Position numbers and translations under genes: made by a program
Virus record (IMG/VR): IMGVR_UViG_3300005980_000007
Location: 1-40,797 of that record
Strand: one strand, 5' to 3'
DNA: 40,797 nt
Source: a virus
Lineage: Duplodnaviria; Caudoviricetes
In this document: positions 100 to 40,691 of the stretch, one piece after another
Layout of the letters: each line of letters starts with the position of its first letter
How positions within the stretch are numbered: the first letter of the stretch is position 1
The notes under the pieces: model-generated
Told to the model about the DNA's origin: nothing
Database searches by the model: none
Seen by the model: only the letters and a program-made list of their open reading frames with translations

Positions 100-113
100 A
101 GGCATTCTACTCG
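100..113. repeat. att core, pgsA-side junction (AGGCATTCTACTCG)
   Basis: Exact copy at 40678..40691; similarity extends imperfectly to AG[A/T]AGGCATTCTACTCG[G/C]TG. Confidence 0.93.
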
Positions 114-134: not shown

Positions 135-163
135 ATTCTATGGGCATTCGCTGGGCATGTCTA
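135..163 (-). promoter_or_regulatory. Predicted sigma70 promoter in the phage att arm, facing outwards to pgsA
   Basis: Minus strand TAGACA (163..158), 17-nt spacer, TAGAAT (140..135); each hexamer is 5/6 to consensus. Confidence 0.65.
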
Positions 164-207
164 ACCGAGTTTCTAACAGTGTTCTAACACGAGTCTAACA
201 CTCTGAC
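160..207. repeat. TCTAAC repeat array, putative integrase arm-type / recombination accessory sites
   Basis: TCTAAC at 160, 172, 183, 194 and TCTGAC at 202; the 18-mer TCTAACAGTGTTCTAACA (172..189) recurs at 40584..40601. Confidence 0.7.
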
Positions 208-32084: not shown

Positions 32085-34778
32085 CTATGCAAAAGCAAAC
32101 TGGCTCTCAAGGATCTTGGTGATGTCAAGGGTCCCCTTCTGTGGAATCGGCGGCATCTTTTCAAGCTGGCTCTCGTGCAGTTGCTCCATGAACTGCTGAC
32201 GGAAGTCCTCCAAGACATCGTTCTCTGTGTACGTCTCAACCATCGCTTCGCGCACAGCCCTGAACATCGCTCCGGCCTTCGCTGGGATGGTCCCGAAGCT
32301 GTCGTGAATCAACGCGAAGAACTCCACGCCGTAGCACTCGGAAGCCTTAACGACTGTCTTGCGCAGGTGGGACCCATCCTGACTGTGTACGAAGTTCGGA
32401 GAGATACCCGATTCCTGTTTGGCCCCGTCGATTTCGTTGGAATCCCGAACATTGATCGTTGAGCGCAAGCGAGCAGCACCCAGGAAGATCAGGTCGACCC
32501 GGCGTTGCACAGGCACCATGTATTCCTGCCACACAGGGAACCCGTCAGGCGTCACCCAGTACACAGGCATGCAAGGCTTCAGGATTTCGGGCTCGGGGTT
32601 CTTCTTGGTCTTCTTTGTGGCGGTCACTTCAGTAGCCAGCAGCTTTGCAGCCTTTTGGAGCCACAACATGGCCTCAACGGCCTTAACTACAACCAAGCTC
32701 ACAGAATCCCAAATGAGGTTCGCCATATACCGGGCACATTGCTGTGCATCAGGGAACCACTGTTCACCGTCACCAGCGTCAAGAGCTGGCTGGATGATGT
32801 CTTCACGTACTTGGTCGGTGAACCCAAAAGCCTTGGAGCCATACGCCAGAGTCATTACGGAACGCTTAGTCACCTTCCGGCTGATCCCGTAGCCCATCCA
32901 ACCAGCGGCCATTGAGCGAGTACCCAACACGCGGCGTTCTGTAATCTCACCGGTCTTCTTGTTCGTCACCACTTCGGTGCTGTCTTCCGCGCCTTCAAGC
33001 ATGTCCCGTTTGACCGCCTCAATGACTTCCTCAGCAACCAAGCGGTAGATGTCCTGAACCTCATCCGAAGGCAACAAGTTCACAGCACGACCACCCCGCT
33101 CGTCTCTGAGCATCGCGGAGAAGTGCTGAATACCAGAGCAAGACCCATCGAATGCGATAGGCAGTGCCGACTCCCACAGCTCACCGTGTTCAACCACACC
33201 GGCCCACTCGAAGCAGAACGCCAGGAAGCAGAAAGGGCTATCCATCTTGGTCCACTCAGGCTGGCCCAGTGGGTCCCGAGCAATCTCAAGGATCAGCTCT
33301 TCGTTGTCCTCTACCCACTTCGTGCGCTGTCCAAAGTCGACCTTATCGACCCCTGCACAGTTGGCCCCGTGGATCTTCAGCCACTCAATACCGTCCTTGC
33401 CGACAGGCTCCGCAATGGAAGCCATCAGGAGGCCCTTGGTCAGGTCGTTGCCTTGTGGATTGAACGATGGGATGGCGTAAACACGGCCCCGCCAGTCGAG
33501 GTTGTACGGGAAGTAAATGGCCTCGTATTCAGAGAACTTTGTGGCCTGCTCTAAGATGAACTCATAGGACAGACGGCGGCTCACTCGGGCCCGGTCCTTG
33601 CGGTACACAGTCGAAGCGGCTTTCTTCCAGGCCTTGAGGACCTCGGGGTCTTCGTCAATGTTCGCAGGCTTGACCGGTAAGGCTTCCTTGTCGGCTGTAG
33701 GAAACTTGTCGATTGGAACATGCTTCCACTGCATCACCTCCTTGGCGACTTCGAGGACCTTTGCGTTCACCTTCCAAGCGGACGCCTGGGCGATGTTCAC
33801 GGCCTTGTAGACCTCGGGCATCGACACGTCCTTGTAGCGCTGTAGAGCCTTCTTTGAGCGGACCCGAATCAACGGCACAGGCTTACGCCCCTTCGCCCAG
33901 TAGCCACCACCAATCATTCCGGTCCACTCGCGCGGCGGTACGATCATTGGTTGGTAACGCGGAGTAATCTCGGCCAGCGCATATGCACGATTGCATAGCT
34001 TTTCGGCCCACTCAGGGGTTAGGTAGATGAACTCGCCGTCTAACTTTGCGTTGCCTGCGTGTTCCCGCTTCATCTCGACCAACTGAGTCGACTCAATGAG
34101 CAGCTCCAGGAGCTTCACGCCAATATGAAAGGTGACGTAGTTGTCCAGTGAGTCCCAGGAGGTCCACTTAGTGGTCAGCTCATTAGCGGCCATCATGTGA
34201 GCCTCGACCTTCTCCATGAACTTAACTTTGTAGGTGTGGCCGTTGCGCTTGTTGAGTGCTGGGCGGATACGCTTGTTGAAGTGTTCCGCCTCCTGCTCGC
34301 GGATACGGCCAAATCGGGCCTCTTCCTCAACCGCCTTACCGAGGGATACTGAAACCTGCTGAACACTCAGCGGCCCCTTTTTGGCGACCATATTAAGAAC
34401 TGTCTTGACGGTAATTGCCGCGACGTTCTCAGCCTTGACCAATTGCAGATAAGGCAGGCCAATATTCTTTCGCTTCACCTTATTCACTTGATGCTCAACC
34501 CAGTCTTCGAAAGCCTTAGCCATCAGGGGAATCAGTGAGGCCAGCACAGGCTTAGCTGTGGCGTTGTCCGCGAACTCATTACGATCAATAGAACGATCAA
34601 GGACTTTCTTAAAGTGATCTTCACCAAGCGTGTAGGCTTCATGCTCAAGACTTAACTGAGCCGCCGCAAGGTCAGGGCCGTAGATATTAGAAAGGGTCTC
34701 ATAGGCCCATGAAGAAACATCAGTGATTGCGCTAAAGTCGTGCTTCGTTAGTTGTATGGTTTGGCTTTCTGCGGACAC
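32085..34778 (-). CDS. gp1: Single-subunit DNA-directed RNA polymerase (gp1)
   Basis: DWRGRVY, FDGSCSGIQHF, RKVTKRSVMTLAYG, PNFVHSQDGSHL, IHDSF, C-terminal FAFA; catalytic motifs intact. Confidence 0.99.
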   Translation of the reverse strand: MSAESQTIQLTKHDFSAITDVSSWAYETLSNIYGPDLAAAQLSLEHEAYTLGEDHFKKVLDRSIDRNEFADNATAKPVLASLIPLMAKAFEDWVEHQVNKVKRKNIGLPYLQLVKAENVAAITVKTVLNMVAKKGPLSVQQVSVSLGKAVEEEARFGRIREQEAEHFNKRIRPALNKRNGHTYKVKFMEKVEAHMMAANELTTKWTSWDSLDNYVTFHIGVKLLELLIESTQLVEMKREHAGNAKLDGEFIYLTPEWAEKLCNRAYALAEITPRYQPMIVPPREWTGMIGGGYWAKGRKPVPLIRVRSKKALQRYKDVSMPEVYKAVNIAQASAWKVNAKVLEVAKEVMQWKHVPIDKFPTADKEALPVKPANIDEDPEVLKAWKKAASTVYRKDRARVSRRLSYEFILEQATKFSEYEAIYFPYNLDWRGRVYAIPSFNPQGNDLTKGLLMASIAEPVGKDGIEWLKIHGANCAGVDKVDFGQRTKWVEDNEELILEIARDPLGQPEWTKMDSPFCFLAFCFEWAGVVEHGELWESALPIAFDGSCSGIQHFSAMLRDERGGRAVNLLPSDEVQDIYRLVAEEVIEAVKRDMLEGAEDSTEVVTNKKTGEITERRVLGTRSMAAGWMGYGISRKVTKRSVMTLAYGSKAFGFTDQVREDIIQPALDAGDGEQWFPDAQQCARYMANLIWDSVSLVVVKAVEAMLWLQKAAKLLATEVTATKKTKKNPEPEILKPCMPVYWVTPDGFPVWQEYMVPVQRRVDLIFLGAARLRSTINVRDSNEIDGAKQESGISPNFVHSQDGSHLRKTVVKASECYGVEFFALIHDSFGTIPAKAGAMFRAVREAMVETYTENDVLEDFRQQFMEQLHESQLEKMPPIPQKGTLDITKILESQFAFA

Positions 34779-34925: not shown

Positions 34926-34948
34926 GCTGCTTTTAGTGGGTGTTTAAA
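34926..34948 (-). promoter_or_regulatory. Phage RNAP promoter upstream of the RNAP gene, TTTAAACACCCACTAAA|AGCAGC
   Basis: Consensus motif about 150 nt upstream of the gp1 start. Confidence 0.85.
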
Positions 34949-34963
34949 CCCGAGGACGAATCG

Positions 34964-35233
34964 TTACACGGAAGCAACCTCTATCCGACCAGTTATTTCG
35001 CTTACTAAGTAGATAAACTCCTTGACCTCACCATCTGTGGAAGCGAAGCGTGTCTCTTGGGTGATTGTCAGGAACTCACTATTGAGCGCGTAACGAAGTT
35101 CGGACACCCACTGGCCGCAGGGACCTCGGCCTAACGCGAACTCGCAGCGCTCATGGTCATAAGTCATTTTTCCATCCTCGCAAACACGTGGAACCTGGGA
35201 GTAGAAGCGGATTCGGCTGATGGGCTTCTTCAT
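34964..35233 (-). CDS. Hypothetical early protein
   Basis: ATGA overlap with the Bro-N gene stop; fills the gap. Confidence 0.7.
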   Translation of the reverse strand: MKKPISRIRFYSQVPRVCEDGKMTYDHERCEFALGRGPCGQWVSELRYALNSEFLTITQETRFASTDGEVKEFIYLVSEITGRIEVASV

Positions 35234-36093
35234 TTCGTAAAATGCTCATTCAGGGCTTTGTCGAGCGCAGACAGATACCCGGCTTGGTTCATGTGTTTCT
35301 TTAAGAACTCCAGTGGGAACCGTGCCCATGGGCGCTTGGCTGACCCTTGCGACAGCTCTGTCTGGAGCTTCCGATGGTCCGTGGCATCCCACAGGTCCAA
35401 TAAGGCAGCTTCGAGTTTCACCGTGACAGTCGGCTTCAGCTTGTCCGCTACAGGAACGCTCAGCCCCTTCAGGTCACACAGCTTGATAAGTAGCTTGCGG
35501 TCGAAGTGACGCCATACGAACTCGGTGTGTACTTCAGGGCACAGGTAGGTGCTTACAGATGCTGGGGCACTCTCAGACACAAGAAGAGGGCGAGCCATCA
35601 GGATTTCAAGCAGAGATTTCAGCTCCCCGACTTCGCCTCTGAGGGTCTTCAGCTCATCCATGACGCCCTGTGCGATTGGGTTCGTGGAATCCTCAGCGTT
35701 GTACTTACCGGTCTTGCGGATGGTCGGTAGGACTTCTTCAGTAACCCACTTACGGAATGGCAGAGTTGCCGGTGATTTGGCGCGCAAGAGCATTCCGTAC
35801 AGCTCAGGCTCTGTGAACATGACTGTGTTTTTGCGGATTCGCTTGGCGTTCTCATCCATGGGCAGGGCAATGGTGGAACAATCTTCTACCAGTGCTTCCA
35901 ACGAGCGACCGTCCTTCAGCTTCTGCCGAGCATGGTAGATAGAGCTTTTCGGGTCCTTTAGGCCAGCGCATCGCGCCACCTGAGTCCCTAAGAACAACAG
36001 ATCGTGGTCAGGGTGCCCGGTCAGTACGTCCAGCTCGATCCCCATGAAGTTGCGCTTTTCGAATTGCATTACGGCAGGCGTAGTAGTAGCCAT
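35230..36093 (-). CDS. Bro-N domain protein (antirepressor-like)
   Basis: FLGTQVARCAG, MFTEPELYGMLLRAKSP, FRKWVTEEVLPTIRKTGKY, then a coiled coil. Confidence 0.9.
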   Translation of the reverse strand: MATTTPAVMQFEKRNFMGIELDVLTGHPDHDLLFLGTQVARCAGLKDPKSSIYHARQKLKDGRSLEALVEDCSTIALPMDENAKRIRKNTVMFTEPELYGMLLRAKSPATLPFRKWVTEEVLPTIRKTGKYNAEDSTNPIAQGVMDELKTLRGEVGELKSLLEILMARPLLVSESAPASVSTYLCPEVHTEFVWRHFDRKLLIKLCDLKGLSVPVADKLKPTVTVKLEAALLDLWDATDHRKLQTELSQGSAKRPWARFPLEFLKKHMNQAGYLSALDKALNEHFTK

Positions 36094-36895: not shown

Positions 36896-37027
36896 TGGCG
36901 TGTATCTCCTTCTCGCAATATATAACCCTCCATCGAGCCAGCTCTGAGGGCGCGCATGTTCGTACAAGATATGCATGCATGCAATATAAATATGCATTAA
37001 TGCATAGACTTAGATAAAAGATGCATG

Positions 37028-37453: not shown

Positions 37454-37527
37454 GGCGTCGAGGTTCCTTTAGGGGCTCTTTGGGAGTGGAGCCCTTTCGT
37501 GTTCTTTAGGGTTTGGGTGTTACTGAA

Positions 37528-37794: not shown

Positions 37795-38043
37795 TTACAC
37801 GCGGGACCGGTGGGAGGCGCAGACAGCGACCCAGTGACCATCAGGAGTGCCCCCGATGTGCCAGGTGTCAGCACGATCCCAGGCGAGTTTCTTAACGAGG
37901 GCCTTAACGGCTGCCTTTACGTTCCCTTCCGAATCCAGGTCGTGGTCATAGCCCAAAGTGATGGAACCAGCAGCGGCTGTTGCCTTGAAGCGGGAACATT
38001 TGGTGTTGGTAGCTGGCAGGTACTTGATGGTGATTGCTTGCAT
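37795..38043 (-). CDS. First early gene, hypothetical protein
   Basis: TAAGGA RBS just downstream of host and phage promoters. Confidence 0.75.
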   Translation of the reverse strand: MQAITIKYLPATNTKCSRFKATAAAGSITLGYDHDLDSEGNVKAAVKALVKKLAWDRADTWHIGGTPDGHWVAVCASHRSRV

Positions 38044-38076: not shown

Positions 38077-38099
38077 TGCGCTTTAAGTGGGTGTTTTAA
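38077..38099 (-). promoter_or_regulatory. Phage RNAP promoter (phiOL-like) TTAAAACACCCACTTAA|AGCGCA
   Basis: Consensus motif at the head of the early region. Confidence 0.85.
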
Positions 38100-38104
38100 A
38101 CACA

Positions 38105-38209
38105 TACTCACAAAAAGCGTATATCTATTCAAAGCCTTACGGCATGTGACGCCTTGATGTGACGTAATCTACGCACAAAAAGCGCATACGTCAACGCACA
38201 AAAAGCGTA
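38105..38209. promoter_or_regulatory. Three 17-bp operator-like sites, consensus TACGC-ACAAAAA-GCGTA (38105..38121, 38170..38186, 38193..38209)
   Basis: TACTCACAAAAAGCGTA, TACGCACAAAAAGCGCA, AACGCACAAAAAGCGTA; each is one mismatch from consensus, with dyad arms. Confidence 0.8.
38166..38194 (-). promoter_or_regulatory. Host sigma70 early promoter
   Basis: TTGACG (38194..38189), 17-nt spacer, TAGATT (38171..38166), upstream of the first early gene. Confidence 0.75.
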
Positions 38210-38225
38210 GATGTGGCGGAAAACG

Positions 38226-38263
38226 AAAAAAACCCGGCGAATCCTTTATGGACTCAACCGGGC
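38226..38263 (-). terminator. Intrinsic terminator closing the integrase operon
   Basis: CCCGG-TTGAGTCC-ATAAA-GGATTCG-CCGGG followed by TTTTTTT. Confidence 0.85.
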
Positions 38264-38278
38264 TTCAGTGTGGCGCTG

Positions 38279-38614
38279 TTAGTAAATAGGATTCTGCCTA
38301 AGCAGCGTCATTAGGGCGCGGCGCGTTTCAATGTGAGAGACCTTCAAGGACATCGCAAGGCAAAGCCAAGACCCAAAGTATATGCAGTCCTGACTTCGCC
38401 CGTAGGCATCCTTATACTGACCGTGATGGGCTACAGCCGTACTGCCAGCAAACCAAAAACCAGTAGGCTTTTCGACAAGCACGCCAGCCTCGGATAGCTC
38501 AACCAATGCAGCCCGAAAAGTCCGTATCAAGTCAGCGTGAGACCTGGGGCGAGTTGTCACCGGCCCCATCTGGAGAATCTCATAGGTGGACGTGAAGAGC
38601 TTTGGTGATTCCAT
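38279..38614 (-). CDS. 111-aa protein with a possible winged-helix N-terminus
   Basis: TAGGA RBS; YEILQMGPVTT..TFRAALVELSEAGVLVEKPTGFW pattern; fold call is tentative. Confidence 0.6.
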   Translation of the reverse strand: MESPKLFTSTYEILQMGPVTTRPRSHADLIRTFRAALVELSEAGVLVEKPTGFWFAGSTAVAHHGQYKDAYGRSQDCIYFGSWLCLAMSLKVSHIETRRALMTLLRQNPIY

Positions 38615-38617
38615 GAA

Positions 38618-38728
38618 TCAAAATCCTAATAGAGCCGTCACCTTTGGGAACGCTTGGACAAACTTGATGATCCCGTAGAGAACGGCGGCACTGAGGACCC
38701 ATGCGGCGACTGTTAACGCTCGGTCCAT
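38618..38728 (-). CDS. 36-aa membrane peptide (MDRALTVAAWVLSAAVLYGIIKFVQAFPKVTALLGF), not in the ORF track
   Basis: AAGGA RBS; 3-nt gaps to both neighbours; one hydrophobic helix. Confidence 0.65.
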   Translation of the reverse strand: MDRALTVAAWVLSAAVLYGIIKFVQAFPKVTALLGF

Positions 38729-38731
38729 GGG

Positions 38732-39127
38732 TCAATCCTTTGTGTTGAGTGTGAATGCTTGGGCTGCACCGCTCAAGACGTACCAGCAGTTACGGTTAAG
38801 GCCGGACTCTTTCGTGATCTTCACGCCTGTAATGCCATCAGCGCCTTGAGCGTATGCGGCCACCTTCAAGTCGATAAGCACACTGGCTTCCGTAGGTGAT
38901 TCCTCCACAAAGCTCCTATGGCACCGTCCAGCAGACACAGTGGTCAGTGGTTCAGCACCAGCAGGAAGAGCTTCGTAGACCTTCACTGTACGCACTGCCT
39001 CCCGCTGGTCCTTTAGGCTCGCGTAAGACTGCTCATTGCCGACTTGGAGATTCGAAGAGTGACTACCACAGCCAGCCAGGAGCAAAAGACCAAGCGCACC
39101 CGCAACACCAACATAACCACAGCGCAT
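38732..39127 (-). CDS. RcsF-like lipoprotein, 131 aa
   Basis: Start reassigned to ATG 39127 (AGGGAG RBS); signal peptide with lipobox LAGC; mature pattern VKVYE..VSAGRC..AYAQGADGI..NCW..GAAQAF. Confidence 0.7.
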   Translation of the reverse strand: MRCGYVGVAGALGLLLLAGCGSHSSNLQVGNEQSYASLKDQREAVRTVKVYEALPAGAEPLTTVSAGRCHRSFVEESPTEASVLIDLKVAAYAQGADGITGVKITKESGLNRNCWYVLSGAAQAFTLNTKD

Positions 39128-39178: not shown

Positions 39179-40630
39179 TTAACTATCAGCCAAGGCCGAC
39201 TTGAGGGCCTCGCCTAACCTGCTCACCTGTACCGCACTGCCTGCCCCGTAGAGGTCGAACGTAATGGACCCTGAGCTATGTCCTAAGATTTCCTGAGCGG
39301 TCCCCAATGGGACTTCAGCCGCCTTTAAGGCACCTGCAAGGTGGTGCCTCAATGAGTGGAAGGACTGGCCTGTCTTCGTCTCTATTTTCAAGACTTCGCG
39401 TATACGCTGGTTAAGTGCCGCTGTGAAAGCTGGCGCGGTGTGCAGGAACAGACGGCCGTTAGCCGCCTCTGCGTAAGCCTTAAGAGCCTCTAAGTCGACC
39501 CCGAACGCATCCACCAAGGGCACCTTACGGGCGCTGAATTTGTTCTTCAGGGTCTTTCCGCCGTTGGTGTTGATGTCCATCACCAGCACACCATCAAGAC
39601 CCTTCAATATGTCATCTGAGGTCAGTTGCTGGATCTCCCCGACACGAGCCCCGGTGATCACTCCAAGAGTCAGCGCCCAACGGTGCCATGAGTCCCCAGG
39701 TAGGCTATTAGCGTGAGCCATAAGTGCCTGTGCCTGATCCCGCGTGAAGGCTGTGCGCTCGCTCTCAGTCCCTTTCAGTATCTGGAGCTTCTTGCAGAAG
39801 GCCTGTTTGATATGGCCGTTATCAACTGCCCAACTGAGGATCGTAGTTAGCTGCGTGATGATCTTGTTAACCGTCACGGCCTTCCGGCCCTCTTTCAGGC
39901 TCTCACGGGCCGCGATCAGATCAGCCCTTGAGTGTGTCGCCATATCTTTATCACCCAGGACACCGATCAGAGTTTCACAGCACGTCTTCACGCTTCTCAT
40001 GCTGGACTCTTTGAGGTCTTCCCGGCGTTCATCCATGTACAGAGCTGCAAGAGCTTCAAAGGTCACGGCAGGTCCGCCTTGAGGCTTCGTGGCGGTGGTG
40101 GCGGTAGACACTGTTTGAGTCAGGGACTCACTAACGGGCCCCACAGAGTCAAGCTCTTCGATAAGCCCCCTGATAGGACCCAAGAAGCCATCAGCTCTCC
40201 GCTCACCGGCAGTCATTAGGCGCCTCCCAAAGTCCACAGCCAGAGTCTGCGGGACGCTCAGTGGCTCAGTGGCTGCTATCTCGTTCAGGTCTGCCAGGAC
40301 ATCCGTATATATCCGTGCAGGCCCGCCCAGCTCATCCCACACAGAACGTGTCTGTATGACTGACTCCGCGATGTCTCTAAGGTTGGCTTTAAGCTCATCC
40401 CATGATGCATCGGGTCTATCGAGGTGGAAGGCTCTAAGGGTCTTTAGGAGGTGTGCAGCGGTAGCCAATGCGGTTTGCCTGTGTGTCGTCTTGAGGGAGA
40501 GCGTTAGGGACTGTTTGGAGCCCATAGGACGGACTCGGAGAGTGTATCGACCCTCCCTCCTGTACAGATAAGGACAGGCAAGGTCTAACAGTGTTCTAAC
40601 AGTTTGGCTCTTTTGGATGGTGGTTAGCAT
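39179..40630 (-). CDS. int: Tyrosine integrase (483 aa from ATG 40630; frame open up to TTG 40675)
   Basis: TGARVGEI (R), LKNKFSARKVP (K), FHSLRH (H-x-x-R), LGHS (H), DLYG (Y); adjacent to att. Confidence 0.95.
   Translation of the reverse strand: MLTTIQKSQTVRTLLDLACPYLYRREGRYTLRVRPMGSKQSLTLSLKTTHRQTALATAAHLLKTLRAFHLDRPDASWDELKANLRDIAESVIQTRSVWDELGGPARIYTDVLADLNEIAATEPLSVPQTLAVDFGRRLMTAGERRADGFLGPIRGLIEELDSVGPVSESLTQTVSTATTATKPQGGPAVTFEALAALYMDERREDLKESSMRSVKTCCETLIGVLGDKDMATHSRADLIAARESLKEGRKAVTVNKIITQLTTILSWAVDNGHIKQAFCKKLQILKGTESERTAFTRDQAQALMAHANSLPGDSWHRWALTLGVITGARVGEIQQLTSDDILKGLDGVLVMDINTNGGKTLKNKFSARKVPLVDAFGVDLEALKAYAEAANGRLFLHTAPAFTAALNQRIREVLKIETKTGQSFHSLRHHLAGALKAAEVPLGTAQEILGHSSGSITFDLYGAGSAVQVSRLGEALKSALADS
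40584..40601. repeat. Second copy of TCTAACAGTGTTCTAACA, putative arm-type site within the 5' end of int
   Basis: Identical to 172..189, same orientation. Confidence 0.7.
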
Positions 40631-40677: not shown

Positions 40678-40691
40678 AGGCATTCTACTCG
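40678..40691. repeat. att core, uvrC-side junction; contains the uvrC stop codon
   Basis: Identical to 100..113. Confidence 0.93.

What the first reader, a model, noticed from the sequence alone, without database searches (positions are those of the whole stretch)
38077..38209. Lambda-style triple operator over both host and phage early promoters, with no classical CI gene
Seen: three 17-bp TACGC-N7-GCGTA sites. Two are 23 bp apart, one filling the spacer and one abutting the -35 of TTGACG-17-TAGATT; the third lies 5 bp upstream of the first phage-RNAP promoter. No divergent cI-like HTH/peptidase ORF or LexA box (CTGT-N8-ACAG) was seen here. Inference: a cooperative repressor switch that shuts off both polymerases' entry to the lytic cascade, run by a non-canonical phage protein or a host factor. 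This is the best candidate for an undescribed lysogeny control system.
Basis: partly seen in the sequence, partly recalled or inferred. Interest (0 to 1): 0.85.

Follow-up and report, generated by a model that had tools for sequence, protein, structure and literature searches.

The report
Rha-fold repressor candidate, T7-like prophage
Three near-identical 17-base sites cover and follow the single predicted host-type early promoter of a virus integrated in a Pseudomonas chromosome, the layout recurs in related viruses, and the sites are likely bound by a small neighbouring protein predicted to have the fold of the poorly understood Rha family, which would be a new kind of dormancy repressor.

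Summary
The three sites are real (38105-21, 38170-86, 38193-209), but each has one mismatch to the stated motif and all share the core ACAAAAA; 0 of 100 shuffles give such a triple. The window is an integrated T7-like prophage close to vB_PaeM-G11. The same layout over the sigma70-like promoter recurs in 4 of 5 relatives (two sites in the fifth), so these are likely operators. 'Lambda-style' and 'both polymerases' are not supported: there is no divergent promoter or gene, the phage promoter follows site 3 only in this window, and a second phage promoter before the RNAP gene has no site. Four of five relatives carry an SOS-like box at a second upstream element, decayed here, suggesting induction by bypass. 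Binding is untested, and a covariation test did not single out the ORF. The scan earlier found MarR- and RHH-type versions on other DNA; my nine answered-topic paper searches showed no Rha-type one.

The parts
38193..38209 (.). Site O1, imperfect 17-bp palindrome overlapping the first 2 bases of the -35
38170..38186 (.). Site O2, fills 15 of 17 spacer bases and 2 bases of the -10; 23 bp from O1
38105..38121 (.). Site O3, 65 bp downstream of O2 (62-66 bp in the four relatives with O2), inside the predicted early leader
38166..38194 (-). Sigma70-like early promoter TTGACG-17-TAGATT, the only 9/12 match on the - strand from 34500 to the window end; conserved in 5 of 5 relatives
38077..38099 (-). 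Phage RNAP-type promoter; at this place only in the window
38229..38266 (-). Intrinsic terminator-like hairpin with T run between orf111 and O1
   Evidence: z -4.9, 0 of 200 shuffles
38279..38614 (-). orf111, candidate repressor; predicted Rha-like fold and homodimer
38618..38728 (-). 36-aa hydrophobic ORF, conserved in 3 of 5 relatives by tblastn
38732..39127 (-). Lipoprotein, 96% identical to G11 ORF2, which its authors annotate as RcsF-like
39179..40630 (-). Tyrosine integrase
40678..40691 (.). 14-bp att core copy at the uvrC stop; partner at 100-113 before pgsA
100..113 (.). 14-bp att core copy upstream of host pgsA
37795..38043 (-). First early gene (82 aa, phrog_3199), also in an integrase-less relative
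36970..37006 (.). Second element: two tandem 16-bp palindromes of type TATGCA-N4-TGCATA upstream of the 2OG oxygenase gene; first copy exact in 3 of 5 relatives, 1 mismatch in a fourth
36953..36968 (.). Decayed counterpart (4 of 8 core mismatches) of the SOS-like box found at this offset in 4 of 5 relatives
35230..36093 (-). Bro-N protein (PHROG 'anti-repressor'); absent by tblastn from the five relatives that carry orf111
34932..34948 (-). Phage-type promoter in front of the RNAP gene, no operator-like site nearby
32085..34778 (-). T7-like RNA polymerase, 99.8% identical to G11

Best explanation
The three sites are likely operators for orf111, a predicted Rha-fold homodimer encoded just upstream, which would keep the prophage dormant by blocking the predicted host-polymerase early promoter. 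Shown: the sites, their fixed register on the promoter in relatives, and orf111's fixed place as the last gene of the integrase run, before a terminator. Inferred: the integrase-lipoprotein-orf111 run is transcribed in the lysogen; dimers on O1 and O2 occlude sigma70; O3, about six helical turns downstream, adds a roadblock or loop; the terminator insulates the early region. Because the phage RNAP has an unguarded promoter before its own gene, the switch would work by denying the first RNAP molecules, not by repressing the phage polymerase. orf111 has no recognisable self-cleaving domain, so induction would have to come from a bypass (the second element, LexA-gated in relatives) or an antirepressor (Bro-N in this window); this step is the weakest.
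For: Layout conserved: O1-O2 23 bp in 4 of 5 relatives, O2-O3 62-66 bp; the fifth keeps O1 and O3. Leave-one-phage-out matrix ranks the window's sites 1, 4, 3 of 81,562 positions; L001 1,2,3; L010 2,1,3; L012 1,2,4; L003 1,15,7; L014 4 and 2. orf111 homologs sit directly before the terminator in all five. Seven RNAP loci without orf111 have only scattered hits (best 6.0-11.9 bits); 0 of 5 of them tested carry an integrase. Model pLDDT 85 and 90; Foldseek best TMq 0.60-0.61, E about 1e-3, to viral 'regulatory/antirepressor' models; 4 of 4 hit-bearing phage records checked carry PF09669 matches in frames of fitting length. hhalign against 12 Rha domains: probability 52.7, E 1.4e-4, 83 columns; 149 column shuffles reached at most 3.6. 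Homodimer score 0.66 against best control 0.00 (mark reached by 20 of 30 solved pairs and 1 of 23 single chains; runs agree in at least 92% of contacts; pLDDT at least 84); the interface (36-45, 56-59, 83-111) leaves the N-terminal RSH-motif region free. All three window sites differ from the relatives' sites at the same two positions (T at 1 vs A in 13 of 14; T at 6 vs A/G in 14 of 14), and the window's orf111 falls in a separate clade, 100/99, 40% identical to G11's while RNAP is 100%. G11 is a shown temperate, UV-induced phage (PMC10142737).
Against: No binding or expression data. Mantel test over six phages: orf111 identity vs site similarity rho 0.46, p 0.085; the 2OG gene did better (rho 0.59, p 0.0125), so covariation is not shown; the two-position shift is a single contrast, and the whole 37.5-40.6 kb region is diverged from G11 (70-76% DNA). 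Pfam PF09669 is not reached: no hit for orf111, E 0.1 at best for 2 of 21 homologs. The five top Foldseek hits were not verified as Rha. A P22-only Rha set gave probability 22 over 25 columns. Rha proteins are described as antirepressors or inhibitors, not repressors (PMC4936722). The last two bases of O1 and O2 are promoter bases and O3 was picked by the matrix, which inflates ranks; leave-one-out scores of the window (9.6-15.7) and L003 (7.0-14.6) overlap the background. No promoter for orf111 was found by consensus scan. L014 lacks O2. No host genome could be scanned.
Confidence: 0.6

Rival explanations
1. A host transcription factor binds the sites and ties the early promoter to host state; orf111 does something else (for example exclusion, with the lipoprotein).
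For: Site similarity across phages did not track orf111 better than a neighbouring gene. Half-sites stay similar across phages whose orf111 are 36-75% identical.
Against: Concerted two-position change in all three window sites is hard to square with one conserved host protein; sites were seen only in phages with orf111 and integrase; they are not LexA-type.
Confidence: 0.15
2. orf111 binds the sites but acts Cro-like during lytic growth, turning early transcription down, while dormancy is held by something else.
For: No operator upstream of orf111 and no divergent promoter, so no visible bistable circuit. Rha genes of P22 and phi80 are lytic-phase genes (PMC4936722). G11 forms clear plaques on its indicator host.
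Against: orf111 lies in the integrase run and was not found in integrase-less relatives that share the early genes.
Confidence: 0.12
3. Another phage protein (integrase N-terminus, the 82-aa, 72-aa or 141-aa early proteins, Bro-N) binds the sites.
For: None of the small early proteins has a known family; 2OG-gene identity tracked site similarity best.
Against: The 82-aa and 141-aa genes occur in integrase-less phages without sites; the 72-aa and Bro-N genes are missing from relatives that have the sites; integrase identity does not track the sites (rho -0.07) and a different repeat family flanks the att cores.
Confidence: 0.08
4. The repeats are promoter architecture or local duplications without a binding protein.
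For: O1 and O2 share bases with the -35 and -10; near identity of the window's copies could come from duplication.
Against: O3 lies outside the promoter yet keeps sequence and spacing in 5 of 5 relatives; dyad symmetry is kept while the middle varies.
Confidence: 0.05

Closest known systems
MarR-based lysogeny module of temperate T7-like phages (LUZ100, PMC10134795, section 12 and passages read; it cites Boeckman et al. 2022, not held)
   Same: T7-like genome with tyrosine integrase and a small co-directional regulator upstream of the RNAP gene; repression proposed to deny RNAP expression; phage promoter before the RNAP gene forms a positive loop.
   Different: There the regulator is MarR-like, upstream of the integrase, and proposed to bind at the promoter before RNAP. 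Here it is downstream of the integrase, looks Rha-like, and the sites cover the host-type early promoter, with none at the promoter before RNAP.
Pseudomonas phage vB_PaeM-G11 / proposed genus Fildesvirus (PMC10142737, passages read)
   Same: Same gene order, RNAP 99.8% identical, integrase, lipoprotein, 111-aa ORF3, same three-site promoter.
   Different: In the passages seen ORF3 is 'hypothetical' and no lysogeny repressor or operator is named. Different att core; no Bro-N gene; phage promoter upstream of the terminator; SOS-like box better kept.
Rha family (PF09669; P22 and phi80 Rha; descriptions from PMC4936722 and PMC8951638, passages read)
   Same: Similar predicted fold, N-terminal 'R-H-x-x-hydrophobic-R' helix and the D-x-x-G-R hairpin align.
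   Different: Below the Pfam cut-off; single 111-aa domain with an extra hairpin; proposed here as a site-specific repressor, whereas the passages seen call Rha an antirepressor or a regulator of unknown action.
Lambda/P22 OR triple operator (P22 annotation seen; lambda details recalled)
   Same: Three short palindromes, two closely spaced over a sigma70 promoter.
   Different: No divergent PRM, no CI or Cro family gene, third site is downstream in the transcribed leader, all genes on one strand.

Membership tests
Lambda-type CI/Cro switch | Three tandem palindromic operators over the early promoter | tested here: met
   Three sites, two over the promoter at 23 bp; third is 65 bp downstream
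Lambda-type CI/Cro switch | Divergent promoter and repressor gene sharing the operators | tested here: not met
   No conserved opposite-strand ORF in six phages; the one + strand promoter match lies inside orf111
Lambda-type CI/Cro switch | HTH plus S24 peptidase repressor | tested here: not met
   No such Pfam or PHROG family among the ORFs scanned
Lambda-type CI/Cro switch | Cooperative binding and bistability | not testable with these tools
   Needs binding and reporter assays
MarR-type module of temperate T7-like phages (LUZ100) | Regulator in one co-directional run with the integrase | tested here: met
   int, lipoprotein, 36-aa ORF, orf111 with gaps of 51, 3 and 3 bp, then a terminator; co-transcription itself untested
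MarR-type module of temperate T7-like phages (LUZ100) | MarR-family regulator | tested here: inconclusive
   No MarR Pfam hit in 21 homologs; winged-helix rows in PDB Foldseek have TM under 0.3
MarR-type module of temperate T7-like phages (LUZ100) | Binding sites flank the promoter directly upstream of the RNAP gene | tested here: not met
   No site within 4 mismatches near 34932-34948; none among top-ranked sites in relatives; one loose match 30 bp inside the RNAP gene of L012
Rha family (PF09669) | Score above Pfam gathering cut-off | tested here: not met
   No hit for orf111; E 0.1 at best in 2 of 21 homologs
Rha family (PF09669) | Rha-like fold | tested here: met
   Foldseek TMq up to 0.61, E about 1e-3; PF09669 found in 4 of 4 hit-bearing records checked, matched by frame length, not accession; predicted models on both sides
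Rha family (PF09669) | Profile-profile homology over the domain | tested here: inconclusive
   Probability 52.7 over 83 columns, far above 149 shuffles, but 22 with a P22-only set
Rha family (PF09669) | DNA binding | not testable with these tools
   Needs EMSA or footprint
LexA-controlled prophage induction | SOS box at a promoter feeding an antirepressor or lytic activator | tested here: inconclusive
   1-mismatch box at the same offset and top-scoring in its locus in 4 of 5 relatives; decayed in the window; no promoter consensus identified there

The most novel reading that the evidence does not exclude
This phage group uses a stand-alone Rha-fold homodimer as its immunity repressor on a defined 17-bp operator, which would give the Rha domain its first cognate binding site as far as my searches reach, and is induced not by inactivating that repressor but through a second, LexA-gated entry upstream of the RNAP gene: a two-lock switch with one phage lock and one host lock.
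Probability: 0.3. Interest if true: 0.85.

Novelty: new variant of a known kind. Interest (0 to 1): 0.62.

Why it matters
How T7-like phages hold lysogeny is open: the MarR model for LUZ100 is a hypothesis and no stable lysogen was obtained there (PMC10134795). G11 has a real lysogen and indicator host, so this cassette can be tested directly. The Rha domain is common in phages and routinely annotated 'antirepressor'; a cognate operator would give it a testable biochemical function. It also warns that T7-like phages without CI or MarR annotation can still be temperate, which matters when screening phages for use.

Tried and rejected
Integrase and first early gene as single-protein queries found no loci; alignment A1 found none in viral contigs and one spurious Elusimicrobia match in genomes; L004 is a 16-residue match and was dropped. 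L002 is identical to the window and L008, L011, L046-L050, L052, L053, L055, L059 repeat contigs already counted, leaving five relatives. The pattern was mis-spaced by one base; its 15 loci had no match to the window's genes. Of 8 loci from the corrected pattern, 4 were known relatives and 4 unrelated (three resemble ordinary divergent switches). One search used a Rha alignment that held a wrong-strand row and lacked three real rows (probability 0.7); redone. PDB searches gave no clear match (Foldseek no E under 0.001; VIA best Z 4.1-4.3; sequence), which does not show a new fold. The Atlas nucleotidyltransferase hint rests on a glycine motif not kept in homologs and was rejected. My local Rha HMM did not pick orf111 out of 500 six-frame segments (E 4.2). 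No RNA holder was listed; contigs laid covered O3 and the phage promoter in one run but not orf111, no evidence on expression. No Pseudomonas host genome was reachable, so the host-motif scan was not run. PMC3806817 (passages and section 11) shows working T7 operators placed downstream of the start, but did not directly test repression from -23 upstream, so I use it only as context. Ten paper searches (one search was on T7 promoter engineering) listed no Rha-type lysogeny repressor; most subscription papers, including Boeckman 2022, are not held, and no supplements were read.

Full report
Context. The window is a whole T7-like prophage with all recognised genes on the - strand, between the end of host uvrC and the start of pgsA, bounded by a 14-bp repeat at 100-113 and 40678-40691. 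Its nearest named relative is Pseudomonas phage vB_PaeM-G11 (RNAP 99.8% identical), which was UV-induced from a lysogen and plaques on another strain (PMC10142737, passages).

The observation. No site matches TACGC-N7-GCGTA exactly. Three match with one mismatch and share an identical middle, so they are both palindromes and direct repeats; nothing else in the window is within 4 mismatches of their consensus. A triple like this occurred in 0 of 100 shuffles. O1 overlaps the -35 of TTGACG-17-TAGATT by 2 bp, O2 spans the spacer into the -10, O3 lies 65 bp further down and 5 bp before a phage-type promoter. A strong hairpin with a T run lies just upstream of O1.

Relatives. An RNAP search gave 25 viral loci; five held an orf111 homolog, four distinct, which with G11 makes five relatives. 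All five keep the promoter. Four keep all three sites, with O1-O2 at 23 bp and O2-O3 at 62-66 bp; L014 keeps O1 and O3 only. A matrix trained without each phage ranks its own sites at or near the top of its locus (window 1, 4, 3 of 81,562; weakest L003 1, 15, 7 of 32,484). Caveats: two bases of O1 and O2 belong to the promoter, O3 was chosen by score within a 80-bp range, and the weaker scores overlap background. Seven RNAP loci without orf111 had only scattered hits; five of them were tested for an integrase and had none.

Both polymerases? Not supported. The phage promoter follows O3 only in the window; it is at -85 to -94, before the terminator, in four relatives and at +414 in L014. O3 therefore keeps register with the host-type promoter. 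In the window O3 lies at about -23 to -39 of the inferred phage start, outside the 17-bp promoter. A second phage promoter 147-176 bp before the RNAP gene (window, L001, L012, L014; not detected in L003, L010) has no site beside it in the window, so any RNAP made could amplify itself; the control point is the first host-made transcript (inference).

The candidate repressor. orf111 (38279-38614) is the last gene of the run integrase, lipoprotein, 36-aa ORF, orf111 and ends 13 bp before the hairpin. It has no Pfam, PHROG or NCBIfam hit and a small family (8 and 12 hits in two searches, three of the 12 being long spurious matches left out of alignment A2). Models reach pLDDT 85 and 90. Foldseek on viral models returns 'regulatory protein' and 'antirepressor' entries, best TMq 0.61 at E 9e-4; in four phage records holding such hits PF09669 (Rha) matches lie in frames of fitting length, while the top five hits stayed unverified. 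Profile comparison with 12 Rha domains gave probability 52.7 over 83 columns against at most 3.6 in 149 shuffles; a P22-only set gave 22, and a first attempt with a faulty alignment gave 0.7. The Pfam cut-off is not met. So it works like a Rha-fold protein by prediction but is not filed as a PF09669 member. Two copies scored 0.66 against 0.00 for the best of three controls (mark reached by 20 of 30 solved pairs and 1 of 23 single chains; contacts agree at least 92%; pLDDT at least 84), pairing through C-terminal helices and leaving the conserved R24-H26-R31 region free, as a palindrome binder would need. This supports but does not show dimerisation.

Covariation. All three window sites carry T at positions 1 and 6 where the 14 sites of relatives carry A (13 of 14) and A/G (14 of 14), and the window's orf111 belongs to a separate clade, 40% identical to G11's against 100% for RNAP and 96% for the lipoprotein. 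This is one contrast in a generally diverged region. A Mantel test did not single out orf111 (rho 0.46, p 0.085; 2OG gene 0.59, p 0.0125). Loci for other window-clade proteins could not be fetched.

Expression and induction. No consensus promoter for orf111 was found. The run is co-directional with host uvrC, and the att core holds a -10-like TAGAAT whose upstream half changes on integration; either could drive it (untested idea). No site lies upstream of orf111, so no autoregulation is visible. Upstream of the 2OG gene lies a second element: tandem TATGCA-N4-TGCATA-type palindromes in the window and four relatives, followed 39-41 bp after the first by a 1-mismatch SOS-type box that is the best such box of its locus in all four; L003 lacks the element and the window's box has 4 of 8 core mismatches (scoring used a recalled consensus). 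With G11's UV induction this suggests a LexA-gated bypass towards the RNAP gene, though no promoter consensus was identified there. The window instead has a Bro-N gene after the 2OG gene.

Comparison. The general scheme, a small regulator beside the integrase that withholds RNAP, is proposed for LUZ100 with a MarR protein (PMC10134795, section 12). Earlier notes of this scan report MarR- and RHH-type versions on other DNA (unchecked). The lambda likeness is limited to site number and spacing. The passages seen on Rha call it an antirepressor or a regulator of unknown action; ten searches of the open library listed no Rha-type lysogeny repressor, but Boeckman et al. 2022 and most subscription papers could not be read, and supplements were not opened.

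Verdict. Real, conserved, likely operators; likely repressor orf111 (0.6); new variant of a known kind; interest 0.62.

Noticed in passing
window 36953-37006; L001, L010, L012, L014: Second conserved element: tandem TATGCA-N4-TGCATA-type palindromes followed by an SOS-type box in four relatives, decayed in the window; the binder of the palindrome is unknown.
   Followed up: partly
window 100-113 and 40678-40691: The att core overlaps the uvrC stop and holds a -10-like TAGAAT; integration swaps the sequence upstream of it, so the promoter of the integrase-orf111 run and of essential pgsA could change on integration.
   Followed up: partly
window 160-200 and 40584-40601: Six copies of a 7-bp repeat flank the att cores, two inside the integrase gene; likely integrase arm sites.
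   Followed up: no
L017 3976-4420; L018: An integrase-less T7-like phage has three SOS-box-like sites, two directly against TTGACT hexamers of early promoter-like sequences; L018 shares two.
   Followed up: no
window 38618-39127: Lipoprotein (RcsF-like in the G11 annotation) and a 36-aa hydrophobic ORF between integrase and orf111; candidates for superinfection exclusion or lysogenic conversion.
   Followed up: no
window 35230-36093; L009: Bro-N gene present in the window (after the 2OG gene) and in L009 (before it) but not in the five orf111 relatives; one metagenome contig shows a 15-bp deletion near its start.
   Followed up: no
window 37471-37496: Long hairpin between early genes, scored as terminator-like on the + strand; may be an RNase III-type processing site of the early transcript (interpretation recalled from T7).
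   Followed up: no
L054, L056, L057: Unrelated phage contigs have similar 17-bp sites in the same register on a TTGAC promoter between divergent genes, so the geometry is a general solution.
   Followed up: no
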